From a phage, in the sequence record PZ445443.1: a stretch of DNA of 64,000 nucleotides. One strand, given 5' to 3'. Both the position numbers and the translations under genes were made by a program. Within the stretch, counting starts at the first letter, position 1. The number at the start of each line of letters is the position of its first letter. The notes under the pieces are model-generated. The model had not been told where the DNA came from, did no database searches, and saw nothing but the letters and a program-made list of their open reading frames with translations. Below are positions 902 through 55,618 of this stretch, in pieces.

Positions 902-1666
902 TTGAAATTTATCTACAAAGAACACTACCACAAAGGTGTTGTGTGGAGTCTATTTGACGGGTCTGGTGGTGCAGTCATTGACTGGGCAAAAGCTGGGTAC
1001 CTGTGCCTGTGCTTTAATGCAGAAGGTGCTGATCACGGCAGTTATGCAGAGGTTATAACCGATCATCCCAACATTCACTATGTGGATTATTGGATTGACC
1101 CATGGTTCCCTCAGGAAACTTTTTGCATGTACCCAGCTCCAGACTTTATTCTTGCATTTCCTCCGTGCACGCATTTAGCGGTATCAGGTGCTGCACATTT
1201 TAAGAAAAAGCTGGCTAAGGACCCCATGATCCAAATTAATGCTGTAAAGGATGCTCGGGTTGCGGAAGAGCTGGGAGAGATTTACGATTGCCCGTGGCAT
1301 GTAGAGAATCCTGTGGGTGTTATGTCCACACTGTGGCGTAAACCTGATTACCGTTTTCATCCTTCTGACTATGGTGGGTATTTACCGGAGGATGATGTAA
1401 ACCCTTGGTTTCCTGAATTTATAGCTCCACGTGATGCCTATCCAAAAATAACTTGCGGCTGGATAGGTAATGGATTTATAATCCCGCCCACAAAACCTGT
1501 CCCGCAAATAGTTGACGCGGTTAGCGGGTATTCCATGCAACACGCCAAGCTGGGTGGAAAGAGTGCAAGAACGAAGATGATTCGAAGCCTCACACCACGT
1601 GGCTGGGCAAAAGCCGTATTCCTGGCAAACGAGCCTGTAGTAAGGAGCAGAATTAATGGGAAGTAA
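902..1666 (+). CDS. DNA (cytosine-5)-methyltransferase-like protein
   Basis: Motif I LFDGSGG, motif IV-like FPPCTHLAVSGA (Pro-Cys with Thr in place of Gln), ENV motif (HVENPVG); start set at TTG 902 after AGGAGA because the track start GTG 872 lies inside the terminator hairpin. Confidence 0.55.
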   Translation: MKFIYKEHYHKGVVWSLFDGSGGAVIDWAKAGYLCLCFNAEGADHGSYAEVITDHPNIHYVDYWIDPWFPQETFCMYPAPDFILAFPPCTHLAVSGAAHFKKKLAKDPMIQINAVKDARVAEELGEIYDCPWHVENPVGVMSTLWRKPDYRFHPSDYGGYLPEDDVNPWFPEFIAPRDAYPKITCGWIGNGFIIPPTKPVPQIVDAVSGYSMQHAKLGGKSARTKMIRSLTPRGWAKAVFLANEPVVRSRINGK

Positions 1667-3734
1667 ATTTATGGCATCTGCATACAACCGTTTCGGTGAG
1701 CCAAACCCGAAAGCAACTAAGTATAAAAGTGGGGGAAGTGTGAAACGAGACTATCGTGATGAAAAAGAAGTTGAAACTGTAGAGACTGTTTTAGAAAATA
1801 CTAAAATTGTCCCTGTCCCACAACAAAATATCGGTCTGATGGCTGCACAATATTTTGGTGTGCGATCAGCATTGTCACAAGAAGACGGTGTGACAGTCAC
1901 TGCAACATATTTCCCATATTACGACCGCTACGGAAATCTGTCCGGTTTCAAAAAGCGTGACTGGACGATTCCTAAAGAGCAAAGGGGCCATTTCTCAGTT
2001 GTTGGCATAGTAAAGGCTAACTCTCAGATGTTTGGGCAAAAGCTGTGTGCATCTTCCAACAACCGTAAGCAAATTAACGTTTGTGAGGGGGAAGGTGATG
2101 TTATTGCAGCATGGCAGGCTGCATATCAGATACAAGTAAAAGGGATTCTCACCAACGCTAAAGCCCCGGCAAAGGTGAAGCAGTGGGCTAAAGAGGTCCA
2201 GGACGGGATCGACGCAGTTATCAACGGTGGTGATCTGGCAGGAAAACCCTGCCTGCCTTTTGTTGGAATTAACTGTGGATGTGCAAACGCAGTAGATACT
2301 TTTGCAAACAATGAGAAGTTTATCCGTAGCTATGGAACAGTTGTGCTGGCAATGGATAACGATGCAGCTAACGAGGTAGAGAAGCAAAAACACGTCATTA
2401 AAGGTGTTGAGGCCACGCACAATATCGCAGCATTTTTGATGGCCGATAACGTTTACCACGTAGAATACCCTGGTGAAGTAAACGACCCTGACGGTGTAAA
2501 AGATATCCGAGACATGCTGAAGGCTAAAAAGCTGGAAGATATTGTCAACATGTTCCGGCACCCTGTTAAATATGTGCCTGATGCTGTGTCGGATTTAGAA
2601 GACTTCTCTATCGAGTCTTTGCGGAAAAAGACTTCCAACGGGGTAGATATCAGCGCAGAGTTCCCAAAACTGCAAAAAATGCTAAAAGGCTTGCACAAAG
2701 GGACACTCGTAATGCTTACAGGTCCGTCAGGTGGCGGTAAAACAACCGTAGCTAAAAAACTGGAACACTGTATTGCAAGATACCTAATGGACCCGACATG
2801 TCCGAAGGCCGATGACTACGAAGAGGATGATCGTCTATGCATGATCCATCTTGAGGAGGACCCAGAGGAAGCAATTAACTCCTTGTATGCAAACCAGTTA
2901 GGGTTTGATGTTAAAGAGTTTGTTGAAGATCCTAGCCAGTTTTTAACTGATCAAGAACACGCAGAGATTCACCAATCATGGGCAAAAGCTGGAAAAATCA
3001 AAGTGTTCAAACATTTCGGATCTATTCCGGTGGACGAGTTGATTACTAAGCTTAAGCAAATGGTTTGCCTGTACCATTGTCGTTATATTGTACTGGATCA
3101 CCTGTCCATGGTAATTTCAGGGCTTAATGTTAAGGATGAGCGAAAAGAACTGGACATGGCTATGACCCAACTGGCTGCGTTTTGTAAGCAGTTTAACGTG
3201 TTTATCTTGGTGATCGCTCACCTCAAACGTACAGAGATTGTGCCTCCTAAGGACAAGGATGGTAACCCGTTACCTTTCTGGTATCCTGTGCGAAAAGAGA
3301 ATTTGCGAGGATCGGCGGGGCTTGAACAGTTGAGTTGGGTAGTCATAGGTGTCGAGGCCGAAGAAATGGTGGATCGTTCTCGTGGACGTGTCCGTCTGGT
3401 AGGTCTTAAAAACCGTCCAGCAAAAGCTCTAGGTATTGCTGACACTTTGGTTATGGACCCGCACACAGGTAAGTTCCATGATGCCAGTAATTGGTACTGG
3501 GACAAAGAAATGCAAATGTTTACAGATGGAGAAGGTGGGGAGGTTGTTTGGAGACCTCAGGCTATGTTTGAGGATCAGGAGCATGCAGTTGTAGAAACAC
3601 CTATGGGCAAGGTTGTGGCTGATAAGGTTGTAACTCCTACTGTTAAGCCTGTTGACACGCAGGAAGAACTCCAGTACGATGATCCGTCCTCTGACCATGT
3701 TCCTGGTTTTGAGGATGATGAAACACCTTTTTAA
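1656..3734 (+). CDS. DNA primase/helicase (TOPRIM primase fused to DnaB-family helicase)
   Basis: TOPRIM motifs CEGEGD and LAMDNDAAN; Walker A GPSGGGKTT; Walker B-like IVLDHLSMV; AAGGAG RBS; 692 aa. Confidence 0.8.
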   Translation: MGSKFMASAYNRFGEPNPKATKYKSGGSVKRDYRDEKEVETVETVLENTKIVPVPQQNIGLMAAQYFGVRSALSQEDGVTVTATYFPYYDRYGNLSGFKKRDWTIPKEQRGHFSVVGIVKANSQMFGQKLCASSNNRKQINVCEGEGDVIAAWQAAYQIQVKGILTNAKAPAKVKQWAKEVQDGIDAVINGGDLAGKPCLPFVGINCGCANAVDTFANNEKFIRSYGTVVLAMDNDAANEVEKQKHVIKGVEATHNIAAFLMADNVYHVEYPGEVNDPDGVKDIRDMLKAKKLEDIVNMFRHPVKYVPDAVSDLEDFSIESLRKKTSNGVDISAEFPKLQKMLKGLHKGTLVMLTGPSGGGKTTVAKKLEHCIARYLMDPTCPKADDYEEDDRLCMIHLEEDPEEAINSLYANQLGFDVKEFVEDPSQFLTDQEHAEIHQSWAKAGKIKVFKHFGSIPVDELITKLKQMVCLYHCRYIVLDHLSMVISGLNVKDERKELDMAMTQLAAFCKQFNVFILVIAHLKRTEIVPPKDKDGNPLPFWYPVRKENLRGSAGLEQLSWVVIGVEAEEMVDRSRGRVRLVGLKNRPAKALGIADTLVMDPHTGKFHDASNWYWDKEMQMFTDGEGGEVVWRPQAMFEDQEHAVVETPMGKVVADKVVTPTVKPVDTQEELQYDDPSSDHVPGFEDDETPF

Positions 3735-3749
3735 TGTTTAACAAAGAGT

Positions 3750-3778
3750 GGGAGGGGTAGTACAACCGCCTCCCCTTT
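3750..3778 (+). terminator. putative intrinsic terminator
   Basis: GGGAGGGG...CCGCCTCCCC imperfect hairpin followed by TTT, directly after primase/helicase stop. Confidence 0.4.
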
Positions 3779-3792
3779 AAGGAGAACTGTAT

Positions 3793-6570
3793 ATGAGCAT
3801 GTGGTCTTTCGATTTTGAGTCATCCGGTTTGCTGGAAGACCCAGATCTTTATTATCACTGCGGCCTGTTTAAAGAGCTGAATAAGAACCGTTTTATGCTG
3901 TTCCTTCCTCTAAATGACCGCACACACTACTCCGAGGAGGATATAGAGAAGGCTAAGAACTTTATTCTGGCAAAGAAAACTCTTTATAAAGATTTTGAAG
4001 TTCGCATAGCAGATTTTTCGGAGTTAGAAGGTTGGCTTACAGGCAATTCCGACTGGTCACCAACAGCTTTGAACTGCCATAACTGCTACAGTTATGACTT
4101 TATGCTGATGGAAAGATTATCCGGTATTCATTTTGATATGTTCCGTGATCCTAAATGCATGGGGACTATCAACGACCACCAGGTCAACCTGTTTGATACG
4201 TTGGCGATGAGCCGAATCTTATGGCCTGATCGCCCTTTACCAAAAGGTTGTCCGGACTCTGTATTCAACCCGGTTACTAAGAAAATGCAGCCTGTCGGTC
4301 CTCACGGCCTTATGGCATGGGGCTACGCCCTTGGTAACCAGAAAGTTCAAATTGATGACTGGCGCGATCTTCCGTTGTGGAAGTATGTGGATCGTGTATT
4401 CGAGGACGTTATCATCCAGGAGCTGCTCTGGAAAGAGCTGGTAGCGGAATCAAAAGGTGTATTCTACGGCAAATCTGACATGCAGAACTTTATGTACGAT
4501 CCTGCCAAAGAGAAGCCGAAAGGGTTCAAGAAGATCACCTGGAAGAACGCATTACGCCGAGGCATGCTGCAGCACTTCCTGATGGAGCTGCAGGCCCGTC
4601 AGGGTGTGTATTTTGACATAGATGGGGCTATTGCTTTACGTGACCGTTGCGATGCGTGGATGAAAGAAATCGCTGATCGTGTTGAACCGCAACTACCTTT
4701 AAAAGAGCTGTCAATGTCTCAGCGGCCCAAGTTCCCTGAAAAGCCGTTTAACCAAGATGGGACAATCTCCAATAATGGTTGGAAATGGTTAAAAGATAAG
4801 CTTGGCTATCCTGTAGATATGAGCGCTTTAGAGTTCAAAGCCCCGCCTAAGCGAGCATTTACCTCTACAGGAGATGTCAGTAAGATGGGGATAAAATGGT
4901 GTGAAGAGATGGGCTGCAAAGACCCCGATAAGATGGCTGATTTCTTGAGAGGCTATATTAAGGGCACCTCCACACCACAACCTTTACCTAAAGAGCTAAT
5001 GGATCAGGCAATAAGTGATCTACAGCAGAAGCGAATGCCGGACTGCAAGATACCTATGAAAATCAGCAACCAGGACGACATTAAGCGATACCTGATCAGT
5101 GCTGGTTGGCTTCCGACAATGTGGAGAACTAAGGATGTAACTAAAGACAGCAAGAAGAAAGCTCTACCTGATGCAGATGTTGATGCACGAGTATATGCAT
5201 ATATGGACGAGCTTTTAGAGTCAGAGTATTGTGACCTGATTATCAACTTCTGGAACAAAACTGATGCTAAGTTCCAGACAACCGTGCACAAGTTCCGAAG
5301 CTTTCCTAACTCCGAAAGGATTAAAAAGGAAGTATTCGGGAAAATACGTAGAAAAGCTAGGGCACTTATTACTTCTCCGCAACTGAAAGATACGTTTGGA
5401 CACCTATGCCCTAATCTTGAAAAATTGAACGGAGAGATGGCTAAAGATATCGTCTTGTGGTTATCATTGCGAAACCGCAGATCGGTACTTGATCCAATCA
5501 AGGAGGATAAGGTTGATACTGGTCTTCTTAATCACCCACGTTTGAAGATTGACCATAAGCTTCCTGCTAAAAGTTCTGGGTTAACAAACACTTCCCGACA
5601 GAAACACAGTATTTGTGCAAACATGCCTAAACCATCTCCTAAAGTGGTTATGGGTAAAGAGATGCGTAGTCTGTGGGGTGTTCCTCCAGGATACTTTGAG
5701 ATCGGTATTGACGGGTCCAACTTAGAGCAGCTTATCGGGGCTTGGGGTGCCTTTGAGTTCGACAACGGCCTGTATTACGATGTTGTAAGTAACGGGGACG
5801 CACACCAAAACAATGCTGAGGCATATACAAAAGTAGCAGGTAGAGAGGTGTCTCGTAACGACGGTAAACCTATCACGTATGGGGTTATGTATGGGGCACA
5901 AAAAGATAAAGTTGCAGATATGCTGGACATCTCTCCAGAGTTGGGACAAAGGGTAATCGATGCACTCTGGGATGCCAACCCTGGTCTTAAGGGGCGTAAA
6001 GAAGATCTGGAGAAATTCTGGGAAGCAACGGGTAAGAAGTTTATCTACTCTTTTGATGGTCATGCTATCTGGACCCGATCTAAACACTCTTTACTTAATG
6101 CATACCAACAAAATGGCGGCGCATCGTTGTGTGACTTAGTTGGGATACTCATGCACCATCAAATGGTGAAGCGTGGGTGGTACGATGAAGGTGTTCGTCG
6201 TATTATCTATTACCATGACGAATATCAGCTTCAAGTCCCTGACACACCGAAGTATAAGACTGTGTACACCTTCGACACAATCGAAGAACTGGAAGCATTT
6301 AAGGCAGAGCAGGAGGCCAAACTTCATGTGTTCGACGGTCATAAGTACAAAAAGGCACGCAAGGATGAGGACGGAAACGAAGTGGTTGACAGAGACGGAA
6401 ACACGGTGTACGATCCTATCCTGAACGATGACGGAAAGCTTGAACTTATCTGGAGCCCTGTGGGTGAAATGGTGGTGCATTGCTTCTGGCAAGCTTCTAA
6501 AATGATGGGCGTCCCGTTCCAGATCACAGGTGAATACCTGTGTGGTCGTAATTGGGGTGATTGTCACTAA
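3793..6570 (+). CDS. DNA polymerase, family A (T7-like) with 3'-5' exonuclease domain
   Basis: Exo I FDFESSGL; motif B-like KPITYGVMYGAQKDKVADML; motif C YHDEYQLQV; AAGGAG RBS; 925 aa. Confidence 0.85.
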   Translation: MSMWSFDFESSGLLEDPDLYYHCGLFKELNKNRFMLFLPLNDRTHYSEEDIEKAKNFILAKKTLYKDFEVRIADFSELEGWLTGNSDWSPTALNCHNCYSYDFMLMERLSGIHFDMFRDPKCMGTINDHQVNLFDTLAMSRILWPDRPLPKGCPDSVFNPVTKKMQPVGPHGLMAWGYALGNQKVQIDDWRDLPLWKYVDRVFEDVIIQELLWKELVAESKGVFYGKSDMQNFMYDPAKEKPKGFKKITWKNALRRGMLQHFLMELQARQGVYFDIDGAIALRDRCDAWMKEIADRVEPQLPLKELSMSQRPKFPEKPFNQDGTISNNGWKWLKDKLGYPVDMSALEFKAPPKRAFTSTGDVSKMGIKWCEEMGCKDPDKMADFLRGYIKGTSTPQPLPKELMDQAISDLQQKRMPDCKIPMKISNQDDIKRYLISAGWLPTMWRTKDVTKDSKKKALPDADVDARVYAYMDELLESEYCDLIINFWNKTDAKFQTTVHKFRSFPNSERIKKEVFGKIRRKARALITSPQLKDTFGHLCPNLEKLNGEMAKDIVLWLSLRNRRSVLDPIKEDKVDTGLLNHPRLKIDHKLPAKSSGLTNTSRQKHSICANMPKPSPKVVMGKEMRSLWGVPPGYFEIGIDGSNLEQLIGAWGAFEFDNGLYYDVVSNGDAHQNNAEAYTKVAGREVSRNDGKPITYGVMYGAQKDKVADMLDISPELGQRVIDALWDANPGLKGRKEDLEKFWEATGKKFIYSFDGHAIWTRSKHSLLNAYQQNGGASLCDLVGILMHHQMVKRGWYDEGVRRIIYYHDEYQLQVPDTPKYKTVYTFDTIEELEAFKAEQEAKLHVFDGHKYKKARKDEDGNEVVDRDGNTVYDPILNDDGKLELIWSPVGEMVVHCFWQASKMMGVPFQITGEYLCGRNWGDCH

Positions 6571-6619
6571 TGTAAACTATCAACACATGGAAGTGTTGTT
6601 GAGCAAAGAGGAGACTTTT

Positions 6620-6904
6620 ATGGTAGTAGAACCAACAAAAACATTTACATCCATGACTATCCCTGTTATTATGCAGGTGGAGTGTGTTCAGGTATCTCAA
6701 GTGTGGCCAGGCACTAAAATCCCAACAGGGCCTGATTTCTTTCAGGTTGGGAAAGTGTACAATGTCTGGAAGGCACCAGATTGTCACCCTTTCATTAAAG
6801 ATGACCGTGGAATGCTGTGGTATCTTGGAAATGATTTGACACTGCACCTTGGGAATGCTATTATTGCAGTATTCAGACTTAACAAGAAGGAGACTGATCA
6901 ATGA
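6620..6904 (+). CDS. hypothetical protein
   Basis: In-frame ATG 6620 after AGAGGAG RBS; co-oriented. Confidence 0.45.
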   Translation: MVVEPTKTFTSMTIPVIMQVECVQVSQVWPGTKIPTGPDFFQVGKVYNVWKAPDCHPFIKDDRGMLWYLGNDLTLHLGNAIIAVFRLNKKETDQ

Positions 6905-7128
6905 CGACTTTGGTTAAAGCTACCTTTGTAGAAGAAAAGATGACAGACCTGTCATTCTTTAAAGAAGGAAAGACCTACGAGGTTTATTACGATAAAGCTC
7001 GTGCAAACAAGATGATTAAAGACGAGGAAGGGATTGCCTGGTTTATCTCCCATCTGGCAAACGGTGAGTATCATATCTACGGAACCACCCTGCTTGCCAA
7101 GTTTGTAGCTGTTGAAGAGGACCTATGA
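6901..7128 (+). CDS. hypothetical protein
   Basis: ORF with ATGA overlap to upstream gene. Confidence 0.5.
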   Translation: MTTLVKATFVEEKMTDLSFFKEGKTYEVYYDKARANKMIKDEEGIAWFISHLANGEYHIYGTTLLAKFVAVEEDL

Positions 7129-7319
7129 AAGTAAAGTATCTGGCTGAGGGCATGAGTAGGTATTTCACCCTTGGTGAAGAATATTGGCCCTTTACAAGCA
7201 ACGGCGATGTCTACGTGAAAGATAATTTCGGCACGCCGTGGTTTCTGCACTCTAATGGGCTGGGATACTCCATTTACTGCGGTGCAGTGAACAACACAAC
7301 TCTTGCAGAGTTCGTTTAG
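7125..7319 (+). CDS. hypothetical protein
   Basis: ORF with ATGA overlap to upstream gene. Confidence 0.5.
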   Translation: MKVKYLAEGMSRYFTLGEEYWPFTSNGDVYVKDNFGTPWFLHSNGLGYSIYCGAVNNTTLAEFV

Positions 7320-7329
7320 AGGAGGTAGG

Positions 7330-7701
7330 ATGTTAGTAAAAGGTACCCACACAGTCAAACAACGTATTGAAGTTGAGATTGATGATTGTGAGCTGAAGCA
7401 TATTTTACGGTCATGCTCCAACGTTTTGCTCCTTAGTATTCTTCAGGAGCGAGCGGAGAACGAGTTCTTAAATGCATTGGCAGGCCGTCCCGGTGACTTC
7501 TGTGTGCGTAAGCGTGGTGACAACAAGTCATGGTTGTGGGAAATCGATGCCGACTGGGATTACCACAAAAATGAGGGTATAGATGAGCCTATTCGTGAAC
7601 TGACTGACAAAGAGATTCAGATGTACAATGAAGTTTGTCATTGGGCAACACGCCAACAAATTTACCTAGACCCTGTGTGGCTGATTGAAAATAGCCATTG
7701 A
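7330..7701 (+). CDS. hypothetical protein
   Basis: ATG 7330 after GGAGG RBS (7321-7325). Confidence 0.5.
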   Translation: MLVKGTHTVKQRIEVEIDDCELKHILRSCSNVLLLSILQERAENEFLNALAGRPGDFCVRKRGDNKSWLWEIDADWDYHKNEGIDEPIRELTDKEIQMYNEVCHWATRQQIYLDPVWLIENSH

Positions 7702-7726
7702 CAAGAAGTAAGATTAGATATAAGAT
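7698..7726 (+). promoter_or_regulatory. sigma70-like promoter
   Basis: TTGACA (7698-7703), 17 bp spacer, TAAGAT. Confidence 0.5.
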
Positions 7727-7777
7727 GCTTCGCACAAACAGAGTGTTGATTTTTAAATAACTAAGGAGACTGCTAAG

Positions 7778-40344: not shown

Positions 40345-40353
40345 AATACACTA

Positions 40354-40638
40354 CTACCAAGTCACTGTCAAGTAGGCAACCGTGTTATTTTTCTCCGGAG
40401 AGATGCCAACAACATCCACCTGCAGACCTCCTGCCCTCAAATCCCCAACAATGTGTGGGAAGTAGTCTGAGAGGTGTGATGGGAGATTTATCGAAAATCC
40501 GCATCCCAGAAAGCCTGCTACCGCTTTATTTTGTATCTCCCCTACAATCGCATCATAAATAGAGTTAAGCTCGTCAGGAAGCGTTACAGGGCGTTTTAGC
40601 GCTAACTGGTGCAACTTGTCCTTAGCACTCATTTTCAT
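40354..40638 (-). CDS. hypothetical protein
   Basis: ATG 40638 overlaps the methyltransferase stop (ATGA). Confidence 0.45.
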   Translation of the reverse strand: MKMSAKDKLHQLALKRPVTLPDELNSIYDAIVGEIQNKAVAGFLGCGFSINLPSHLSDYFPHIVGDLRAGGLQVDVVGISPEKNNTVAYLTVTW

Positions 40639-41168
40639 TTCAAGTCTGCCTCTGGAGGTGCCAACCACATAAATGGCGGCAGGTCTAAACGGTTCTTCTT
40701 GTCCCACACAAAATATGCATATGCTTGCCCGTCAGTTCTGCCATTCGATTGGAATGATGGACGCTTAGATATTGTGATCACAGTGGTAGGTGCATTATCA
40801 AGCCACCATTCAAATCTGGCTTTGCTTTCCAGAAAATTAAGACGCAAAAGCATAATAACTACGTCAGCATCTTTCAACGCCTTGTCTACAAACTCACGAG
40901 CCAAGCTGTACGGTGGGTTGGTGATAATACAGTCAACATGGTTGTATTCTGTATTCAGATAGTCAACACCTTCTTGGATTTCTCCCCATGCAGATCCTAA
41001 CGGCATACGGGAGTAGAACACGCCTGAGGCGCTATTTCTGCAAGGCTCCAAATAGGTCCAATCTTCTGGGAACGGAATGAGGTCATACAGCCCTTCTGCA
41101 CACCACTCCGGTGTCACATACTCATCGTAGGCGTTACGTTGTTCATCAGGTTTTCTAGCACAAGTCAT
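40635..41168 (-). CDS. DNA N6-adenine methyltransferase (small phage Dam-like)
   Basis: Catalytic NPPY motif (DCIITNPPYSLAREFV); 177 aa; GGAGA RBS. Confidence 0.6.
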   Translation of the reverse strand: MTCARKPDEQRNAYDEYVTPEWCAEGLYDLIPFPEDWTYLEPCRNSASGVFYSRMPLGSAWGEIQEGVDYLNTEYNHVDCIITNPPYSLAREFVDKALKDADVVIMLLRLNFLESKARFEWWLDNAPTTVITISKRPSFQSNGRTDGQAYAYFVWDKKNRLDLPPFMWLAPPEADLK

Positions 41169-44032: not shown

Positions 44033-44094
44033 TTGGCACCTCCTCTGCTCTTATTACGCTAATTATAACCAACTTAACAAAGCTTTGTCAACGA

Positions 44095-45069: not shown

Positions 45070-45130
45070 ACTGTACCTCCTAGTTCACTGTGCCAACAAT
45101 ATGCCACATCCTTGTGGCTTTTGTCAAGTA

Positions 45131-47529: not shown

Positions 47530-47532
47530 GTA

Positions 47533-48621: not shown

Positions 48622-48633
48622 TATTCTAACCTC

Positions 48634-48656
48634 TAAAATGGGGCCGAAGCCCCTTT
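48634..48656 (-). terminator. terminator-like hairpin between nrdA and nrdB
   Basis: Reverse strand GGGGC-TTCG-GCCCC followed by ATTTTA; weak T-tract. Confidence 0.35.
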
Positions 48657-48660
48657 AAAA

Positions 48661-50976
48661 TTATAGTGCACAGCTTTCGCAATACGGATCTTCAACTGAA
48701 CTATCTGCAATCAAAGGATAGTTCTTTCTGGTTTCATCTTCAGCCTGTTTCTTGGCATGAAGTTCCTCTGCCAAGGAGTCACCAGCACCAACCCTAGAGT
48801 TTAAATAATACCATGTCTTCATCCCGAATTTAGTGGCACGGATAAGGTACCCTAGCTGCTCCTTCATTGAAATTTTACCATCTTTCAACTTGGTGTAGTC
48901 TATGTATAAATCCGCGCTGATTGCCTGACCTGTGAATTTTTGAATCACAGCATACATATCGATCATGTCGTTAGTATCAACGTCCCAAGCCGAAGTGTAA
49001 TACTCTTTCAACTCATCATAGTCAGGAACGATAAACAGCACCTGCCCTTGTGGCGACTTTTTAAAGATAATGTGCTCACGGACAGGATAAACCCCGTTAG
49101 TGGTGTTTGTTGCCAGCGAAGAGCTTTCATTAGGCATATATGCTTCAAGAACGCTATTACGTAGCCCACCATTTTCAATGATCTCTTTACGTAACCCTTC
49201 CCAATCCTGTTTAAGAGAAGGATCTTTCACCACGCTATCGACCTCTTTGTTATAGGTGTCGATTGGTAACCAACCTTCTGGATATTTTGTCTTATGCATC
49301 CACTCGCAGACACCACGCTCTTTTGCCAACCGTAAACTTGCCTTATGCAAGCTGTAGCTGTGAAGTTCTGCAAGATCGTGAACAAGCTGTTTACTTTCAG
49401 GAGATCCGTAAGCAACCTTGTGGCTGGCAATAAAATGTGCAACATTGGTAAGGCCAACCCCGATGGATCTGCGTTTTTTAACAGTGCTCTCCATATTTTC
49501 ATACGGATATGTCATGATTTCCATAACATTGTCAATCATAAGCACCGTGTAGTATGCAACATCCTCATACTCCTCTGGGGTAACCCTTCCAGCTACAAGG
49601 GATGACAGGAAGCACAATGCAACCTCACCATCATCAACATCGTACTTGAAGATATTACGCATATCTGAATAGCCTTTTGTCGGGAGGGCTATTTCTGCAC
49701 ACAGGTTACTTGAATAGATCACATCTTTAAAAGGTGTATGTCTATTCATCTCATCTGTCCAGTATACGAACAGCCTTCCAACCTCAGTACGCTGCGTGAG
49801 CAGTTCAACAGCAAGATCTCTAGCTCGGATCCATGTTTTAGGAATACTGTCATCTTTAGCGATACGATCAACCTCTGCATCAAACTCCTCCATAGACATG
49901 GTGAAGATACCCTCATGCAGTTGAGGCGCGTGCTTATAAGAAACAAGCATCCAATCCAAATTCTTAGCCACACGGTTGATAAACGACCTATTAATACCGA
50001 TGGAGTAGTCCATGGTGTTGATTCTTTTTGAAGCAACAGTCATAGGGTTTCTCAAACGGATTAGCTCATCAATCTGCGGGTCCAGTGCAAGGAATGATAC
50101 TGTTGCAGAACCGCCACGTGATTGTTGTCTGTTCTCCTTAACACCAGCATCAATACCTCGATAATATGGAATCTTACCCATATGTTTAATAGTGTTACCA
50201 CGAACACCATCGCCTGCAGATCTTGAGGATAAGTAGTAGCCGATACCTGCTTGGTTAACCGTCATTGTGTACGCAACTTCACGTGCCACACCAATAGATT
50301 TTGCTGTATCATCAGCTTTTATTACACAACAAGATGCATACCCTGTCTTACCTGTACGCAGCCCGTTTAAGTACGGTGTCGGAGCATTGATCTTTAGGTC
50401 GGACAGATAAGTGTATAATTTTACAACATCGTTGATACGACGTTCTTTCGGCATATTCTTCATGACAGCCATTGCTATCCCCATAAACATCATCTGGGGA
50501 GATTCAAACAGGGTGTCTTTAAGAGTATCCTTGATCCCGTATTTGTCGCGAAACTGTTTAAGGACTGCATAGCCATAACCGAGATCTTTACTGTGATCAA
50601 TAACAGTGCCTAAAGTGTTTAACTCGGTAAAGCTATAACCCATATCCTCCCAATACCCTTTCTCAACCATGTCGTTGTAAAATGATGGTAAGGAAGGGAT
50701 CTTTGTAAACCCTCCAAAAGCCTCTTTATAAATCTGACCAATAAGAACACGACCAGCCATACGGGAATGTGCTTCGTCTTTACGGCTAACACAGGAGTCT
50801 ATGATAGCTTGGTTAACTTCTTTGGTCGTACATCCATCATACAGTCGTTTGTATGCATCCAGTGCAATGTGTGACCAATTGCCGTTACCGTCGTCACCGA
50901 AAATAGCTGCCTTATTTAAACGTTCTGGATCGAATGCCACTTCACATCCGTTGCTTTTAATTACCTTGGTGATCAA
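48661..50976 (-). CDS. nrdA: ribonucleotide reductase large (alpha) subunit, class I
   Basis: N-terminal ATP-cone (VIKSNGCEVAFD); active-site SSNLCAEIALP; 771 aa. Confidence 0.85.
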   Translation of the reverse strand: MITKVIKSNGCEVAFDPERLNKAAIFGDDGNGNWSHIALDAYKRLYDGCTTKEVNQAIIDSCVSRKDEAHSRMAGRVLIGQIYKEAFGGFTKIPSLPSFYNDMVEKGYWEDMGYSFTELNTLGTVIDHSKDLGYGYAVLKQFRDKYGIKDTLKDTLFESPQMMFMGIAMAVMKNMPKERRINDVVKLYTYLSDLKINAPTPYLNGLRTGKTGYASCCVIKADDTAKSIGVAREVAYTMTVNQAGIGYYLSSRSAGDGVRGNTIKHMGKIPYYRGIDAGVKENRQQSRGGSATVSFLALDPQIDELIRLRNPMTVASKRINTMDYSIGINRSFINRVAKNLDWMLVSYKHAPQLHEGIFTMSMEEFDAEVDRIAKDDSIPKTWIRARDLAVELLTQRTEVGRLFVYWTDEMNRHTPFKDVIYSSNLCAEIALPTKGYSDMRNIFKYDVDDGEVALCFLSSLVAGRVTPEEYEDVAYYTVLMIDNVMEIMTYPYENMESTVKKRRSIGVGLTNVAHFIASHKVAYGSPESKQLVHDLAELHSYSLHKASLRLAKERGVCEWMHKTKYPEGWLPIDTYNKEVDSVVKDPSLKQDWEGLRKEIIENGGLRNSVLEAYMPNESSSLATNTTNGVYPVREHIIFKKSPQGQVLFIVPDYDELKEYYTSAWDVDTNDMIDMYAVIQKFTGQAISADLYIDYTKLKDGKISMKEQLGYLIRATKFGMKTWYYLNSRVGAGDSLAEELHAKKQAEDETRKNYPLIADSSVEDPYCESCAL

Positions 50977-51224
50977 TTTGCTTCCTCCACTTCATTAACG
51001 TATTTATCAAGGCAGGTATCAGTATCTTGCTGGATAAAGGTATCCTCTTCTACAGAGATATTTATAATTTTACCTGTATACTCGTCATAATAAACATCAT
51101 CATACATTTTAATATCGTTTGTCAGGCCGTTGAACCAAAGCCAACCAACATATTCTGCCCGACTTGCAAAACCAAGATCCTTCCACTTGGAGTTATGACT
51201 CATCTTCACCACCTTAGCTTTCAA
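50973..51224 (-). CDS. hypothetical protein
   Basis: Co-oriented ORF, ATGA overlap with nrdA. Confidence 0.45.
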   Translation of the reverse strand: MKAKVVKMSHNSKWKDLGFASRAEYVGWLWFNGLTNDIKMYDDVYYDEYTGKIINISVEEDTFIQQDTDTCLDKYVNEVEEAN

Positions 51225-51714
51225 TACCGAATAATTTTTCTAGGCGATGCAGATCTTCAAAATTGAAAGGTTCATCAACAATATGAATATCTTCAGCCTT
51301 TTCAGATTGTTTTGTATACTTTCTTACATTAACACGATCCTCTACAGGGATATCATACGGAAGATCTTGAACAAGCATTGCCTCACCGGGTGCTTTATCT
51401 ACATCCAAAATATCTACACCGTTATACATTTGCGGGTATCTAAAGTCTGCACGCATGACACCAGCAAATACATCTGCCTTTCGATAATGTGTTGGCTTAT
51501 TTTTGCATCGAACGTTTTTTCCACGAAGAACATCAATACTTTTTAAATCAAACCCTACGGCAAAGAGTGCAGCTCGGAGACCGTTTCGTGTGCGAACGTT
51601 AAACCCTGGAACGGTAGATAGGAAATCCAAAGTAACTGAAATAAATGTCTTTTTAGGAATCATAACATTACTCATATCTGTCTCCATTTCTGGCTCACCA
51701 ACAAAGTGAGCCAT
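51214..51714 (-). CDS. hypothetical protein
   Basis: Co-oriented ORF, 166 aa. Confidence 0.45.
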   Translation of the reverse strand: MAHFVGEPEMETDMSNVMIPKKTFISVTLDFLSTVPGFNVRTRNGLRAALFAVGFDLKSIDVLRGKNVRCKNKPTHYRKADVFAGVMRADFRYPQMYNGVDILDVDKAPGEAMLVQDLPYDIPVEDRVNVRKYTKQSEKAEDIHIVDEPFNFEDLHRLEKLFGIES

Positions 51715-51773
51715 TATTATAGATTATCTGATACTATTAGTCAACACAAAAGTTACCTATCGCTGTGATAGGA

Positions 51774-52757
51774 TTAACCTTTCACGAAGTGGTTATTAAG
51801 CAGTTGTCTGTGCTGAACCCACCCACAAAAGTTGGCAGACCAGAATTTACCATCACGGTCTTGATGGGTTACACCTTCCTGCCAAGTACTAATGTCTTGT
51901 GTGATTTCACATGAAGACAGGTAGTAGTTTAAACGTTCCATTGCGTTATCATGATCCATAGGTGTTGCCTGGTGTTCGTAAGGGCTTGCATGAATACGAT
52001 CCCCACCAATCAATTTTTTAGCCACACTGTCTGCCTTTTCAAACGTACTGTCAATATTTCGATAAGATACTTGTGCACAGCAACTAGCACTAATAGACAG
52101 AGCTTCTTTAGTATCAAGAATGCAGAGCTTTCCTTCTGTGTCACGTACAGCGTAGTTAAACTCTCCGTCCAAATAAACGTGCTCTACATATGGAGTGTGC
52201 CATTGACCTGGTTTAAGGATTTCAGGAGTGCTATTCACAAGAGCTTCCCACATACAATTAGCCAACATCTGAATCGTAGGATCCGCATCGTGCCAGCAAC
52301 GGAGATGGAAAAAATTATTCCACTCTGTGCTTGTTACAACTGTTTTCATGCGCTGAAACGGCTCCACTAAGCGGTTACATACTTGTTTATGGTAACCAGC
52401 AAGGGCGAACTTCTCTGCATGCCAAGCGGCGTTTTTTGCAGCTTCTTTCCAAAACTCTTCAGGGGTTAGCTCCATGTCAGTGTACTCTACACGGATCTTT
52501 TGATCATGTTCCCCACCATCTTCCATCCCTCGCTTATTTACACCGAAGCGAACTGGCATTGCCGGATTCTCCACAATCTGCTGCAGCATCTTGCCGACAG
52601 GCACTGCACGGGAAGACATGGCGTTTCGGCTGAATACTCGATGCGTCATAAGCTCTGAGTGAATAATTCGAGGATACTCTAGCTCAAAAGTGGTGATGCG
52701 CTTACCTTTCTCGGAAATGCTGTCAGCAATGATCTTTGCAGTGCACAGTTTTAGCAT
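51774..52757 (-). CDS. thyX: flavin-dependent thymidylate synthase
   Basis: ThyX signature region ELMTHRVFSRNAMSSRA (HR-x7-S). Confidence 0.75.
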   Translation of the reverse strand: MLKLCTAKIIADSISEKGKRITTFELEYPRIIHSELMTHRVFSRNAMSSRAVPVGKMLQQIVENPAMPVRFGVNKRGMEDGGEHDQKIRVEYTDMELTPEEFWKEAAKNAAWHAEKFALAGYHKQVCNRLVEPFQRMKTVVTSTEWNNFFHLRCWHDADPTIQMLANCMWEALVNSTPEILKPGQWHTPYVEHVYLDGEFNYAVRDTEGKLCILDTKEALSISASCCAQVSYRNIDSTFEKADSVAKKLIGGDRIHASPYEHQATPMDHDNAMERLNYYLSSCEITQDISTWQEGVTHQDRDGKFWSANFCGWVQHRQLLNNHFVKG

Positions 52758-52957
52758 TATTTAGCTCTCCTTGTTTTAATTTTGGAAATTTCGTCTGGGT
52801 TTATATTGGCCTTAAATGCAAGGTATCTGTTAAACATATCAGAGCACATGTCTTGGGTGATCCTGGAGGCATACACTAGCTTACCCCCCAGATCATATAC
52901 CTCCAGCCAGTCACCGTATCTGACTACAGGATCTCCACCTTTAGAACATCTGCCCAT
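52757..52957 (-). CDS. hypothetical protein
   Basis: Co-oriented ORF. Confidence 0.45.
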   Translation of the reverse strand: MGRCSKGGDPVVRYGDWLEVYDLGGKLVYASRITQDMCSDMFNRYLAFKANINPDEISKIKTRRAK

Positions 52958-52958
52958 T

Positions 52959-53552
52959 TCAAATACCTTCTAAAAACTTTCCTATTTTATACCAACTATT
53001 AGCGATATAGTCAACACTGACCTTTAACTCCTCGAATTGCTCATAAGGCGTATCTTTTAGGATTTTAATAACTTCAGGTCGTGAAGCGAATTGGTTAAGG
53101 TATTCATGCCTGTCGTCAATTATAACATCTACAGCCACATTTCCTTTGAAATGTGTGGCGTAGAAGCCGTGACCCTGGGTGTGATCGTCCAGATCCATAA
53201 AATCACTGGTCCAACGCTTTAAGAACCTTGATTTAGATGCAAGGTGACCTTTCTTGCATACCGAGATAAATGCAAGCTTGTGACCACGAGCCACCAAATC
53301 TTTCATAACCTCAATAGCCCCCTCTTCAGGCTTAAGAAAGTCGTAGAGGAATGGGTCACTCCAGAAATCAAAAGGCCCTATGATGTTTTCTTTGGGGCGA
53401 TCAGGCCAATACTTTGACAGATCGTAATACATCAGCCCATTAGAAGGTTTAGCGACTGCCTTACTGGCTGGACCATACAAACGCTCCAACCACTCCCACC
53501 ATGCTGTTCCTGAATCTACCAGTGTCAAATCTACATCAATTCCGATTAACAT
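52959..53552 (-). CDS. HAD-family 5'-(deoxy)nucleotidase
   Basis: N-terminal HAD motif I MLIGIDVDLTLVD (DxDxT). Confidence 0.55.
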   Translation of the reverse strand: MLIGIDVDLTLVDSGTAWWEWLERLYGPASKAVAKPSNGLMYYDLSKYWPDRPKENIIGPFDFWSDPFLYDFLKPEEGAIEVMKDLVARGHKLAFISVCKKGHLASKSRFLKRWTSDFMDLDDHTQGHGFYATHFKGNVAVDVIIDDRHEYLNQFASRPEVIKILKDTPYEQFEELKVSVDYIANSWYKIGKFLEGI

Positions 53553-54163
53553 TCTTCTTGGGCCTCTTTAGCATCAATATACTTGCACACAATCTCCGAT
53601 GCACACTCCCAAGGTGCACCTTCAGGGTTTACAACATCGAACTCAATCCCTTTTATTCCGTTCTTTTCCAGACTTAGATAGGTTCTGGAATCATTTCCCC
53701 AGTCATATCCGACACGGTGAATACGGAACAACAACAGATCTCCACCTGTGCTGTATGCGTACTCGCTAAGGCATGCCAGCTCCTCTCTGAAGCCACCATC
53801 GGAGTAAACAACAACCCCTTTACCTTTAGGGAAATCTTTCTTCAAAGATTCGACTGCGGCTTTACCGAAAGCATCCTCACCAAAAATAGGTTTAATCAGA
53901 TTTTCACTACAATGGATCATCCATTCTCGCGGAGAAACATGCTTGCCGTCTATCATTAAGAAAGGGCAAGGCTCTTCTTTGTAGTGGCGGTCATAAAGTG
54001 CATTCCAGAGCTGAGGAGTTACACCAGCTGCCTTAATTGCCACACTGAATAGCATCTCCTTAACCTCACGGTGGTGTGAGTTAGGAATAGCTTCCAACAA
54101 GAGATCTGCAATGTGATCCTTACCACTGCTAGGTGGGGCATTAAGAACAATAATATCCATCAA
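53546..54163 (-). CDS. putative deoxynucleoside monophosphate kinase
   Basis: P-loop-like NAPPSSGKD near N-terminus, resembling T4 gp1 (..RSGKD). Confidence 0.5.
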   Translation of the reverse strand: MMDIIVLNAPPSSGKDHIADLLLEAIPNSHHREVKEMLFSVAIKAAGVTPQLWNALYDRHYKEEPCPFLMIDGKHVSPREWMIHCSENLIKPIFGEDAFGKAAVESLKKDFPKGKGVVVYSDGGFREELACLSEYAYSTGGDLLLFRIHRVGYDWGNDSRTYLSLEKNGIKGIEFDVVNPEGAPWECASEIVCKYIDAKEAQEEC

Positions 54164-54363
54164 AAACCTCCGTGGTATTCTTCAACTGCATCAATAATAC
54201 TTTTACACTTATCTACCAGCTCGTTAGCCACTACAGCATCGTCTTCCCAAACAGCTTCCTCAATCTGATCAAGCAATGATCGCATCTTGCCCATCATTTC
54301 TGGGATAAAGTTTTCTGAAAAGCTGTCTGGAATTGTTAACTTTAGTGTCATTGCGGTCTCCAA
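54160..54363 (-). CDS. hypothetical protein
   Basis: Co-oriented ORF, ATGA overlap. Confidence 0.45.
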   Translation of the reverse strand: METAMTLKLTIPDSFSENFIPEMMGKMRSLLDQIEEAVWEDDAVVANELVDKCKSIIDAVEEYHGGF

Positions 54364-54378
54364 CCATACTATGCGTTA

Positions 54379-54837
54379 TTAGAAGTTTGTTTTTACACGT
54401 CCCTTTTCATCGACTTCGTTATTAGCTAAAAGCGTTACAAAGTCTGTGAAACGGACATGAAGAACTCTTTTCTTATCAAGGTATCCTAAAGCCACCCCTG
54501 AGAAATTTAGCATCAAAGGGGCTAAAGAAGCTCTGGCACTGAAATGCTGTTGTTCTACCCTTCCAACACCCTTAGTGTAGGAAGGGTTAAGATTGTAAGT
54601 TCTGAATCCTAGTTTTGTTGGAGCTTTAGAATTAAAAACAACTTTATAGCGTTTCTTACTCAACTTATGCTCCAGGATAAGCATTCCCTTATCACCCTTG
54701 ATAAGTTGAAAATCTGTAAAGTGCTCTTTTAAGACGAAAGGTAGTGCCAGCCCCATCGCCTGCCCCCTTTGTACCGCTGTCTCACCAAAAGCTTTTGCAT
54801 CAGTAAGTTCTTTGGTCAAGTCTATGCTTTTGATCAT
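54379..54837 (-). CDS. hypothetical protein
   Basis: ATG after GGAGA RBS. Confidence 0.5.
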   Translation of the reverse strand: MIKSIDLTKELTDAKAFGETAVQRGQAMGLALPFVLKEHFTDFQLIKGDKGMLILEHKLSKKRYKVVFNSKAPTKLGFRTYNLNPSYTKGVGRVEQQHFSARASLAPLMLNFSGVALGYLDKKRVLHVRFTDFVTLLANNEVDEKGRVKTNF

Positions 54838-55618
54838 ACCTAGTCTCCAAAATGTATTGTAGTTCTTTCTTACCTATACTCTTCATTCCGGCAGTCTTAC
54901 CTGCTTCTTCTTGAAAAGAAGAATAGCATTCAGCAAACACTCTGTCAACACCGTCAACTAAAGATTTTATGAAATATGTTGATTCTTCAGATTTTGGGTC
55001 ATCATCCCCCAATACTTTTCCAGCATTATACCCAACACGTCTTACACAGAAGTCGTAGTCATCTGGTGTGCTAAAAGAAAATAACTTATTCTCTCCAATC
55101 TTTACAGGATCCCTATTGCACTCCTTTTTCTCCCAAATTTGGAAAACACATGGCACGTCATAAGGTTTGCCATTAAGTAAAAACGAGTTCTTAGGGCACC
55201 TTTCGCTGTAGACAAGGTGCATCGACATGTCCAATTTGTTTGCAAAAAATATTTTTTCAAATGTCCGTGGCAAGATGAAGGCTATAGCCCCTCCAAGCTC
55301 TAGCAATGATGCACAATGGTTAAAGAATTTGCAAGCTAAGGATGAATTCTTGCCAAATGGTGGGTTACCTATGAAGACATCTGCCTTGGGATGCACCTCC
55401 AAGAAGTTTGCCTGAATGCACGGTGTTGGTCCTTCAAATTCAGGGTCTGGTACTAAATCGTACGACAGTATCTCTGAAAATAGTTTTGAAAAAGAACCCC
55501 TTCCAGCAGAAGGCTCAACGTATGCACAATTCCCATATTTGTCTTTTACTTTACCAACAAGATATTCTGCATACCCTGGGTTTGTGTAATATTTGTCGTT
55601 AGACTCTTTCTTGCTCAA
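54800..55618 (-). CDS. DNA methyltransferase (N6-adenine or N4-cytosine)
   Basis: Catalytic NPPF motif (FIGNPPFGKNS); 272 aa. Confidence 0.6.
   Translation of the reverse strand: MSKKESNDKYYTNPGYAEYLVGKVKDKYGNCAYVEPSAGRGSFSKLFSEILSYDLVPDPEFEGPTPCIQANFLEVHPKADVFIGNPPFGKNSSLACKFFNHCASLLELGGAIAFILPRTFEKIFFANKLDMSMHLVYSERCPKNSFLLNGKPYDVPCVFQIWEKKECNRDPVKIGENKLFSFSTPDDYDFCVRRVGYNAGKVLGDDDPKSEESTYFIKSLVDGVDRVFAECYSSFQEEAGKTAGMKSIGKKELQYILETRYDQKHRLDQRTY

What the first reader, a model, noticed from the sequence alone, without database searches (positions are those of the whole stretch)
902..55618. Three DNA methyltransferases of different classes in one window
A C5-cytosine-like enzyme (902-1666), a small phage Dam-like NPPY enzyme (40635-41168) and an NPPF enzyme (54800-55618) imply extensive self-methylation, presumably to evade several host restriction systems. 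None has a cognate restriction endonuclease next to it.
Basis: partly seen in the sequence, partly recalled or inferred. Interest (0 to 1): 0.45.

Follow-up and report, generated by a model that had tools for sequence, protein, structure and literature searches.

The report
Orphan DNA methylases of rV5-like phage
The window comes from a well-known rV5-like E. coli phage, and its three methylase genes are real but already annotated; one was shown in 2025 to methylate every GATC site of the phage genome, so the finding is correct but ordinary.

Summary
All three ORFs exist at the stated coordinates and are methyltransferases. The window is 97-98.6% identical to rV5-like Vequintavirus genomes, in which these genes are already annotated.

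- **ORF2 (40635-41168, 177 aa)** is 100% identical to phage Bas51 gene bas51_0176. Published escape mutations D69G, D79G and T83P fit only this protein. The T83P mutant loses GATC m6A (1405 to 35 called sites). Bas51 has 703 GATC sites, or 1406 adenines, so methylation is essentially complete.
- **GTAC** is also fully m6A-methylated (509 of 516 adenines) and does not depend on ORF2. The writer is unassigned. I favour ORF3 (about 0.65).
- **ORF3 (54800-55618, 272 aa)** is homologous to ORF2 (hhalign 97.9%), so these two belong to one gamma-type class, not two. In about 26 of 80 bacterial loci, ORF3 relatives sit next to a conserved, uncharacterised nuclease-like gene that the phage lacks.

No restriction enzyme is adjacent to any of the three, and a fourth methylase lies just upstream of the window. 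The idea of evading several restriction systems is only narrowly supported, because the BASEL study found these phages exceptionally sensitive to all tested RM types.

The parts
902..1666 (+). ORF1: compact C5-cytosine DNA methyltransferase-like protein (254 aa). TTG start. Its stop overlaps the primase/helicase start (1656) by 11 nt. It is the orthologue of bas51_0074 / bas55_0073, annotated 'Dcm-like C5 cytosine methyltransferase'.
   Evidence: - ORF and start codon.
- phrog_757, E 4e-87.
- Invariant GSG, PPC(89) and ENP(135-137) in 29 relatives.
- 5 of 29 relatives match Pfam PF00145 at E <= 0.01, one of them above the curated cut-off, but the window protein does not.
- 253/254 residues identical to Bas51.
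40635..41168 (-). ORF2: minimal (177 aa) gamma-type N6-adenine DNA methyltransferase that writes G6mATC. It is identical to Bas51 bas51_0176.
   Evidence: - ORF.
- phrog_799, E 5e-67.
- Motif order DxYxTP, EPxxGxG, D69, D79, T83-NPPY.
- Profile hit to M.TaqI, E 1.4e-5.
- 100% identical to the only Bas51 methylase that has D69, D79 and T83.
- Published data: D69G, D79G and T83P abolish retron triggering, and T83P drops GATC 6mA from 1405 to 35 sites (PMC12548924).
54800..55618 (-). ORF3: compact (272 aa) gamma-type N6-adenine methyltransferase with an NPPF motif. It is a distant paralogue of ORF2 and the probable (not proven) writer of GT6mAC. TTG start. Its 3' end overlaps the next ORF (54379-54837) by 38 nt.
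   Evidence: - ORF and start codon.
- phrog_5172, E 9e-129.
- Invariant EPxxGxGxF and GNPPFG motifs.
- hhalign to the ORF2 family: 97.9%.
- AlphaFold model pLDDT 92.3.
- Bacterial relatives are paired with a conserved downstream nuclease-like gene in about 26 of 80 loci.
- 3 substitutions in 272 residues relative to Bas51 bas51_0200.

Best explanation
The window is part of an rV5-like Vequintavirus genome. Its three genes are orphan DNA methyltransferases embedded in the replication and nucleotide-metabolism gene blocks, and they methylate the phage's own newly made DNA.

- **Shown, for an identical protein in phage Bas51:** ORF2 writes N6-methyladenine at essentially all GATC sites on both strands. 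Host Dam does not substitute for it at the threshold used. The enzyme is dispensable for plaque formation in the laboratory and toxic when expressed alone. It is a liability as well as an asset, because retrons Asa1 and Squ1 use its activity as an infection signal.
- **Shown:** GTAC is also fully m6A-methylated in that phage, independently of ORF2.
- **Inferred:** ORF3 is the GTAC enzyme (about 0.65). The alternative is the type III Mod-like methylase just outside the window.
- **Inferred from fold and motifs only:** ORF1 is an active C5-cytosine methylase with a very small target-recognition region and an unknown target.
- **Inferred function:** narrow-spectrum protection against restriction enzymes blocked by these particular marks. 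ORF3 looks like the methylase half of a bacterial two-gene restriction-modification family that the phage took without the nuclease. This is not broad restriction evasion.
For: - **Identity of the phage:**
- **ORF2 is the GATC methylase:** it is 100% identical to bas51_0176, and D69, D79 and T83 occur only in that Bas51 methylase. The paper reports the same three mutations and loss of GATC 6mA. Site arithmetic agrees: 703 GATC sites x2 = 1406 against 1405 called; 258 GTAC sites x2 = 516 against 509-511 called.
- **Gamma-class assignment:**
- **C5 fold and catalytic motifs of ORF1:**
- **ORF3 as a DNA enzyme:** its family is paired with a conserved downstream PD-(D/E)xK-like gene in about 26 of 80 bacterial loci, some of them decayed, and that gene is absent from the phage.
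- **ORF3 as the GTAC enzyme:**
  - The other candidate resembles type III Mod subunits, which from general knowledge usually target asymmetric sites.
  - A known GTAC m6A enzyme, M.HpyAXII, is M.TaqI-like with its motif IV Asn at position 87; ORF3 has N85.
  - GTAC is the most depleted 4-bp palindrome (0.75) around bacterial loci that keep the nuclease partner (weak).
- **Restriction pressure on the genome:** six GC-rich 6-bp palindromes are absent, and the GTAC observed/expected ratio is 0.59.
- **Orphan status:**
- **ORF1 family in prophages:** a relative sits in the nin region of a lambdoid prophage next to a PF05869 Dam and with no nuclease.
Against: - The BASEL study found Vequintavirinae exceptionally sensitive to RM systems, so any anti-restriction benefit is limited to cognate specificities that were not tested there.
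- A protective effect of GATC or GTAC methylation has not been shown for these phages.
- The T83P mutant plated as well as wild type on the control strain without a retron.
- All usual hosts are Dam+, which makes GATC-cutting host enzymes unlikely. ORF2 may therefore serve something other than restriction evasion.
- GTAC remains strongly avoided although it is methylated.
- No measurement of m5C exists. ORF1 scores below Pfam's threshold and has little room for a target-recognition domain.
- The assignment of GTAC to ORF3 is circumstantial.
Confidence: 0.75

Rival explanations
1. The methylases, ORF2 above all, serve the phage's own DNA transactions rather than restriction evasion. Possible roles are keeping replicating DNA fully GATC-methylated so that MutH does not nick it, marking DNA for packaging or replication, or timing gene expression, as known for P1 and other phages that carry their own Dam.
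For: - Hosts are Dam+, yet host Dam leaves phage GATC essentially uncalled in the T83P mutant (35 of 1406 adenines). The phage therefore invests in a mark that the host genome already carries.
- GATC is not avoided in the genome (ratio 0.98).
- The genes sit in replication and nucleotide-metabolism operons.
- The phages remain highly RM-sensitive.
Against: - The T83P, D69G and D79G mutants plated as well as wild type on the control strain without a retron, so no essential role is visible.
- The idea does not explain GTAC or C5 methylation.
- ORF3's relatives are halves of restriction-modification-like pairs, which points to restriction as the selective context.
Confidence: 0.3
2. ORF3 is not a DNA methylase but an RNA N6-adenine methylase of the METTL5 / 'COG2263 predicted RNA methylase' type that modifies host or phage rRNA or tRNA. 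On this reading GTAC methylation is done by the 441-aa Mod-like enzyme outside the window.
For: - The best profile hit in the PDB is Ta1320, followed by METTL5.
- JGI labels several relatives 'predicted RNA methylase'.
- The PHROG family is listed as unknown function.
Against: - The RNA-enzyme matches cover only the 139-154-residue Rossmann core, whereas DNA methylases M.BseCI, CamA, MmeI and M.TaqI align over 229-251 of 272 residues.
- ORF3 is homologous to ORF2, a proven DNA enzyme.
- Bacterial relatives are paired with a nuclease-like gene in an M-R arrangement, with decayed partners as is typical of restriction-modification systems.
- A GTAC activity needs a writer, and type III Mod-like enzymes usually target asymmetric sites.
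Confidence: 0.12
3. ORF1 is not a sequence-specific DNA m5C methylase. It is either an inactive relic or a C5-fold enzyme with another substrate or product, such as tRNA (as for Dnmt2) or a group other than methyl.
For: - No Pfam or NCBIfam hit for the window protein.
- Only 254 aa, with about 40 residues where C5 methylases usually carry a target-recognition domain.
- No m5C data for these phages in the papers searched.
Against: - PPC, ENP and a further 38 columns are invariant across 29 relatives down to 50% identity, and the family has more than 3500 members, so it is under purifying selection and not a relic.
- The closest folds are DNA enzymes, including DNMT3B, which also has a minimal target-recognition domain.
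- Five of 29 relatives match PF00145 at E <= 0.01, and one passes its curated cut-off.
- Relatives occupy the classic orphan-methylase slot of lambdoid prophages.
Confidence: 0.12

Closest known systems
Bas51 (Escherichia phage WalterGehring, MZ501111.1) 'N6 adenine methyltransferase' bas51_0176, the retron Asa1/Squ1 trigger (PLoS Biol 2025, PMC12548924)
   Same: ORF2 is 100% identical over 177 aa and sits in the same gene neighbourhood: ClpP-like protease upstream and the 'glycosidase' five genes downstream. GATC m6A specificity and the loss-of-function positions D69, D79 and T83 carry over directly.
   Different: Nothing at the protein level. The window comes from a different isolate, closest to ECO111 5-P and JeffSchatz at 98-98.6% DNA identity.
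Classical Dam enzymes (E. coli Dam and T4 Dam, alpha class) and the phage Dam family PF05869/TIGR01712 (T1- and HP1-type)
   Same: Same product (G6mATC), and the same status as an orphan, phage-borne enzyme. ORF2 has a weak similarity to PF05869 (E 0.001) and a similar small size.
   Different: ORF2 has the gamma-type motif order (X, I, then IV) and its best solved relative is M.TaqI. It scores 19 bits against a cut-off of 28 for PF05869, and 16 against 97 for TIGR01712. The alpha-class Dam family did not appear among its Pfam matches. It works like Dam without being a member of either family by curated criteria.
M.TaqI-like gamma-class N6-adenine DNA methylases (M.TaqI, M.BseCI, CamA, MmeI methylase domain; M.HpyAXII for GTAC)
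   Same: ORF2 and ORF3 share the motif order, the (D/E)PxxGxG SAM loop and the NPP(Y/F) catalytic loop. ORF3 aligns over 229-251 residues with these structures. M.HpyAXII writes GT6mAC and has its motif IV Asn at position 87, against N85 in ORF3.
   Different: ORF2 (177 aa) and ORF3 (272 aa) lack the separate C-terminal DNA-recognition domain of M.TaqI (421 aa) and M.BseCI (585 aa). I could not test sequence similarity of ORF3 to M.HpyAXII, and no Helicobacter locus appeared among the 80 best relatives.
C5-cytosine DNA methyltransferases (PF00145: M.HhaI, M.HaeIII, Dcm, DNMT3A/B; prophage methylase 3g7u)
   Different: ORF1 is 254 aa against 320 or more for bacterial enzymes. It has no Pfam hit of its own, no clear QxRxR motif VIII, and a C-terminal IRSLTPRG motif in place of the usual motifs IX/X. 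hhalign to E. coli Dcm is not significant (E 0.16), although it pairs PPC with PCQ. 'Dcm-like' in the database annotation says nothing about CCWGG specificity.
Orphan methyltransferases of lytic and temperate phages (general phenomenon reviewed by Murphy et al. 2013, cited in PMC12210895)
   Same: Several methylases of more than one type without nucleases, located among replication genes. A Vequintavirus paper already notes four methylase CDSs (BME3), and related genera report adenine plus cytosine methylases.
   Different: Nothing essential.

Membership tests
C5-cytosine DNA methyltransferase (PF00145) - ORF1 | Class I SAM-methyltransferase fold closest to known C5 methylases | tested here: met
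C5-cytosine DNA methyltransferase (PF00145) - ORF1 | Catalytic motif IV Pro-Cys and motif VI Glu-Asn-Val, plus the motif I FxGxG loop | tested here: met
   P87-P88-C89 and E135-N136-P137 (ENP variant) are invariant, and G20-S21 are nearly invariant with G22 following, in 29 relatives. The profile aligns motifs I-IV to DNMT3B and M.HaeIII, but weakly (E 0.18-0.5).
C5-cytosine DNA methyltransferase (PF00145) - ORF1 | Score above Pfam's gathering threshold | tested here: not met
   No PF00145 hit for the window protein. Five of 29 relatives match at E <= 0.01 (best 1.3e-6). P0054 scores 24.7 bits against a cut-off of 22.
C5-cytosine DNA methyltransferase (PF00145) - ORF1 | Target-recognition domain between motifs VIII and IX; m5C produced at a defined DNA motif | not testable with these tools
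   Only about 40 residues separate the strand at 184-189 from the C-terminal IRSLTPRG motif. No cytosine methylome of an rV5-like phage turned up in the papers searched.
Dam (GATC N6-adenine methylase), by function - ORF2 | Writes m6A at GATC in DNA | tested here: met
   Sequence identity to the characterised Bas51 enzyme was computed here. The activity itself comes from PMC12548924: GATC 1405 to 35 called sites in T83P. The count matches 2 x 703 GATC sites.
Phage Dam family PF05869 / TIGR01712 - ORF2 | Score above the curated family thresholds | tested here: not met
   PF05869: 19.2 bits against 28.1. TIGR01712: 16.1 against 97. 15 of 43 relatives reach E <= 0.01; the best-scoring one, P0203, has 25.1 bits against 28.1.
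Gamma-class (M.TaqI-like) N6-adenine DNA methylases - ORF2 and ORF3 | Motif order X, I, II/III, IV (NPPY/F), with the SAM loop N-terminal to the catalytic loop; similarity to solved gamma enzymes | tested here: met
Gamma-class (M.TaqI-like) N6-adenine DNA methylases - ORF2 and ORF3 | Separate C-terminal target-recognition domain | tested here: not met
   ORF2 ends about 90 residues after NPPY. ORF3 is 272 aa, roughly the size of the M.TaqI catalytic domain alone. Recognition must use loops of the core or a small C-terminal extension.
GTAC-specific m6A methylase (M.HpyAXII / M.CviQI / M.PabI type) - ORF3 | Writes GT6mAC | not testable with these tools
   GT6mAC exists in Bas51 and is independent of ORF2. 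The candidates are ORF3 and the 441-aa Mod-like enzyme. Circumstantial support for ORF3.
METTL5-like RNA m6A methyltransferase - ORF3 | Small single-domain NPPF methylase acting on rRNA | tested here: inconclusive
Type II restriction-modification system - all three | Cognate restriction endonuclease encoded next to the methylase | tested here: not met
   Neighbours are a primase/helicase, a ClpP-like protease, a DnaQ-like exonuclease, a dNMP kinase-like protein and small proteins of unknown function. There is no homologue of the A4 partner family in the window. The unknown small neighbours cannot be formally excluded.

The most novel reading that the evidence does not exclude
ORF1 may not be a plain Dcm-like methylase. 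It could be a C5 enzyme almost lacking a target-recognition domain and giving an unusual output: either a very short (2-3 bp) recognition sequence, or transfer of a group other than methyl. Its second-best structural match is a DNA C5-carboxymethyltransferase. If so, rV5-like phage DNA would carry a cytosine modification nobody has looked for, since only 6mA has been called.
Probability: 0.08. Interest if true: 0.55.

Novelty: already known. Interest (0 to 1): 0.2.

Why it matters
As stated, the finding adds nothing new. The genes are annotated in more than 100 rV5-like genomes, multi-methylase content has been noted for this group, and ORF2's activity and its role as a retron trigger were published in 2025.

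What remains open is modest but concrete:
- which enzyme writes GT6mAC;
- what ORF1 modifies;
- what the roughly 349 non-GATC, non-GTAC 6mA calls in Bas51 are;
- whether these marks protect against anything, given that the phages are notoriously restriction-sensitive.

The analysis also turned up a conserved, uncharacterised nuclease-like partner of ORF3's bacterial relatives. If it is a restriction enzyme, it would define a small new restriction-modification family and explain why the phage carries ORF3.

Tried and rejected
- **Single-sequence searches** of the three proteins against the PDB gave nothing useful. Profiles and structure models were needed.
- **Curated libraries:** Pfam and NCBIfam gave no hit above a curated threshold. 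PF26055, precomputed for many ORF3 relatives, is not in the local Pfam copy, so I could not name it.
- **hhalign of the ORF1 family to E. coli Dcm** was not significant (E 0.16) and aligned only the PPC/PCQ segment.
- **Structure libraries:** afdb50 was not available. BFVD gave no named, characterised viral methylase for ORF3.
- **ORF3 partner gene:** the Poseidonibacter downstream gene and the A4 partner family had no Pfam or PDB match, so the partner's nuclease nature rests on its position, its motifs (E15, D40, S54-x-K56) and the decayed copies.
- **GTAC depletion around bacterial ORF3-family loci** is only a weak hint: 0.75 with the partner against 0.87 without.
- **Literature searches** found no cytosine methylome or restriction-digest study of rV5-like DNA. 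One attempted search failed on syntax.
- **Rejected ideas:**
  - A further methylase paralogue in the window.
  - A nuclease remnant next to ORF3 in the phage.
  - The 'TrmN6 tRNA methylase' label that one record gives ORF2, because the identical protein methylates DNA.

Full report
**What the window is.** Megablast of both ends of the finding places the window in rV5-like myoviruses of E. coli (Vequintavirus, Vequintavirinae). It is 98.6% identical to phage ECO111 5-P and 98.3% to BASEL phage JeffSchatz. More than 110 records cover at least 80% of each query. In JeffSchatz, window position 1 corresponds to record position 65626. The annotated records show a replication block on the + strand, a long run of small unknown genes, and a nucleotide-metabolism and replication block on the - strand.

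**The observation.**
They coincide with CDSs annotated 'Dcm-like C5 cytosine methyltransferase' and, twice, 'putative N6 adenine methyltransferase' in the BASEL genomes.
- ORF1 starts at a TTG at 902 behind an AGGAG. The longer GTG-872 reading has no ribosome-binding site. ORF3 also starts at TTG behind GGAGG, and ORF2 starts at ATG.
- PHROG matches are strong: 4e-87, 5e-67 and 9e-129. None of the three reaches a Pfam or NCBIfam curated threshold, so the calls below rest on profiles, models and literature.
- A motif scan and profile searches of all six frames found no further methylase in the window.
- A fourth methylase ends about 360 bp upstream of the window. It is 441 aa, matches PF01555, carries a DPPF motif, and resembles type III Mod subunits such as EcoP15I Mod.

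**ORF2 (40635-41168, 177 aa).**
- Its family keeps the motif order DxYxTP, EPxxGxG, D69, D79, T83-N84-P85-P86-Y87. The family profile finds M.TaqI first among solved structures (E 1.4e-5), followed by ErmC' and type I M subunits. That is the gamma-type order, with no separate recognition domain.
- The decisive evidence is published. In BASEL phage Bas51, all escapers from retrons Asa1 and Squ1 carried mutations in 'an adenine methyltransferase'. Engineered D69G, D79G and T83P abolished defence. Nanopore 6mA calling gave 1405 GATC, 509 GTAC and 576 other sites in wild type, against 35, 511 and 349 in T83P (PMC12548924).
- Bas51 is phage WalterGehring, MZ501111.1. I fetched its genome and found that, of its three adenine methylases, only bas51_0176 has D, D and T at positions 69, 79 and 83. 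The window's ORF2 is 100% identical to it.
- The same genome has 703 GATC and 258 GTAC sites, that is 1406 and 516 adenines. Both motifs are therefore methylated at about 99-100% of positions. The window itself holds 346 GATC and 130 GTAC sites.
- So ORF2 works like Dam. It is not a member of the classical alpha-class Dam family, and it falls below the cut-offs of the phage Dam family PF05869/TIGR01712.

**ORF3 (54800-55618, 272 aa).**
- Its family has invariant EPxxGxGxF and GNPPFG motifs and is homologous to the ORF2 family over the whole core (hhalign 97.9%, E 4e-13; reciprocal HMM hits). 'Different classes' is therefore wrong for these two.
- I scanned one genome per bacterial species and examined the 80 best-matching loci. 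In about 26 of them a conserved gene of about 215 aa follows directly on the same strand. It carries the motifs HGKxFE, FDI, PTSIKS and LNPKIDSKxQRRLQCS (a PD-(D/E)xK-like pattern). In several loci it is truncated or split.
- That partner has no Pfam or PDB match and no homologue in the phage window.
- This is the arrangement of a type II restriction-modification pair. It argues that ORF3 is a DNA enzyme which the phage carries without its nuclease.

**Who writes GT6mAC?** E. coli K-12 has no GTAC methylase (general knowledge), and the mark is independent of ORF2. The writer is therefore ORF3 or the Mod-like enzyme. I favour ORF3 at about 0.65, for these reasons:
- Type III Mod relatives usually target asymmetric sites.
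- A known GTAC m6A enzyme, M.HpyAXII, is M.TaqI-like with its catalytic Asn at position 87; ORF3 has N85.
- The ORF3 family belongs to type II-like pairs.
- GTAC is the most depleted 4-bp palindrome (0.75) around loci that retain the partner (weak).

The roughly 349 residual 'other' sites are about what a 5-bp asymmetric motif would give in 140 kb. That would suit the Mod-like enzyme, but this is speculation.

**ORF1 (902-1666, 254 aa).**
- Twenty-nine relatives down to 50% identity keep the GSG loop, P87-P88-C89, E135-N136-P137 and a C-terminal IRSLTPRG motif.
- The profile touches only C5 methylases in the PDB, and only weakly.
- Five of 29 relatives match PF00145 at E <= 0.01, and one passes its curated cut-off.
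- The protein has very little room for a target-recognition domain, like DNMT3.
- An E. coli relative lies in the nin region of a lambdoid prophage beside a PF05869 Dam.
- I conclude it has the fold and catalytic motifs of an active C5 DNA methylase, with activity and target untested. I found no cytosine methylome for these phages.

**Function.**
- The genome shows the footprint of restriction pressure. CCGCGG, CGGCCG, CTCGAG, GCCGGC, GCTAGC and GGCGCC are absent, CGATCG occurs once against 15.7 expected, and the GTAC ratio is 0.59 (z -11). GATC is not avoided (0.98).
- Yet the BASEL study found Vequintavirinae 'exceptionally susceptible' to RM systems, seemingly without effective protection. 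The methylases can therefore give only narrow protection against enzymes blocked by their particular marks.
- ORF2's activity also has a cost, because retrons sense it.
- A housekeeping role for GATC methylation (mismatch repair, packaging) remains a live rival. Host Dam evidently does not keep up with phage DNA (35 of 1406 called in T83P), and usual hosts are Dam+.

**Verdict.** The matter is already known: the genes are annotated in many genomes, four methylase CDSs have been noted for a related phage, and ORF2 has been characterised experimentally. Interest is low. The residual open points are the GTAC writer, ORF1's target, and the uncharacterised partner gene of ORF3's bacterial relatives.

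Noticed in passing
Just upstream of window position 1 (JeffSchatz MZ501082.1 63941-65266 = L003:3942-5267; Bas51 bas51_0070): A fourth methylase of 441 aa ends about 360 bp before the window starts. It is beta-class (PF01555, E 3e-42), carries a DPPF motif, and is most similar to type III Mod subunits (H. pylori Mod, E 1e-28; EcoP15I Mod, E 2e-24). The window therefore cuts the phage's methylase set from four to three.
   Followed up: partly
L011-L090 (bacterial loci), e.g. L064:3776-4429, L058:3789-4439, L015:3805-4401: In about 26 of 80 bacterial genomes, the ORF3 homologue is followed directly, on the same strand, by a conserved gene of about 215 aa (alignment A4). Invariant residues include H10, G11, E15, D40, K56 and Q89, and the motif LNPKIDSKxQRRLQCS is conserved. 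It has no Pfam or PDB match, and in several loci it is truncated or split. It looks like an undescribed restriction endonuclease family.
   Followed up: partly
Whole Bas51 genome (L005-L007) and the window: The genome strongly avoids GC-rich 6-bp palindromes. CCGCGG, CGGCCG, CTCGAG, GCCGGC, GCTAGC and GGCGCC all have 0 occurrences, CGATCG has 1 against 15.7 expected, and TGGCCA has 2 against 17.6. GTAC is depleted (ratio 0.59, z -11) even though it is fully methylated, whereas GATC is not avoided.
   Followed up: partly
window 38880-39404 (-): This is the orthologue (95% identical) of the Bas51 'putative glycosidase' bas51_0171. Its R87* mutation abolishes defence by retron Asa1. It lies five genes downstream of ORF2 on the same strand. 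How it contributes to retron triggering is unknown.
   Followed up: no
window 902, 55618; overlaps at 1656-1666 and 54800-54837: Two of the three methylases start with TTG. ORF1's stop overlaps the primase/helicase start by 11 nt, and ORF3's end overlaps the next ORF (152 aa, phrog_9938, unknown function) by 38 nt. This suggests low, translationally coupled expression, which would fit the reported toxicity of ORF2 when it is expressed alone.
   Followed up: no
window about 26400-28800: A stretch of about 2.4 kb without long ORFs lies at the point where the + strand gene block meets the - strand block. The corresponding stretch is unannotated in JeffSchatz and Bas51. No tandem repeats were found in 24500-28500 and no tRNAs anywhere in the window. 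One paper says BASEL Vequintavirus assemblies carry the terminal repeat region 'in the middle' of the record.
   Followed up: partly
Database records hit by window 1-8000 and 39000-57000: Sixteen to 21 records named 'Campylobacter phage' (for example MG065635 C12 and MG065644 A147, host C. jejuni) match this E. coli rV5-like sequence, and their ORF2 is 99% identical. The host labels of these unannotated records look doubtful.
   Followed up: no
window 40635-41168, as annotated in PP488543.1 (phage BP9): One public record names the ORF2 orthologue 'tRNA1(Val) A37 N6-methylase TrmN6'. The identical protein methylates GATC in DNA, so this label is a mis-annotation.
   Followed up: yes
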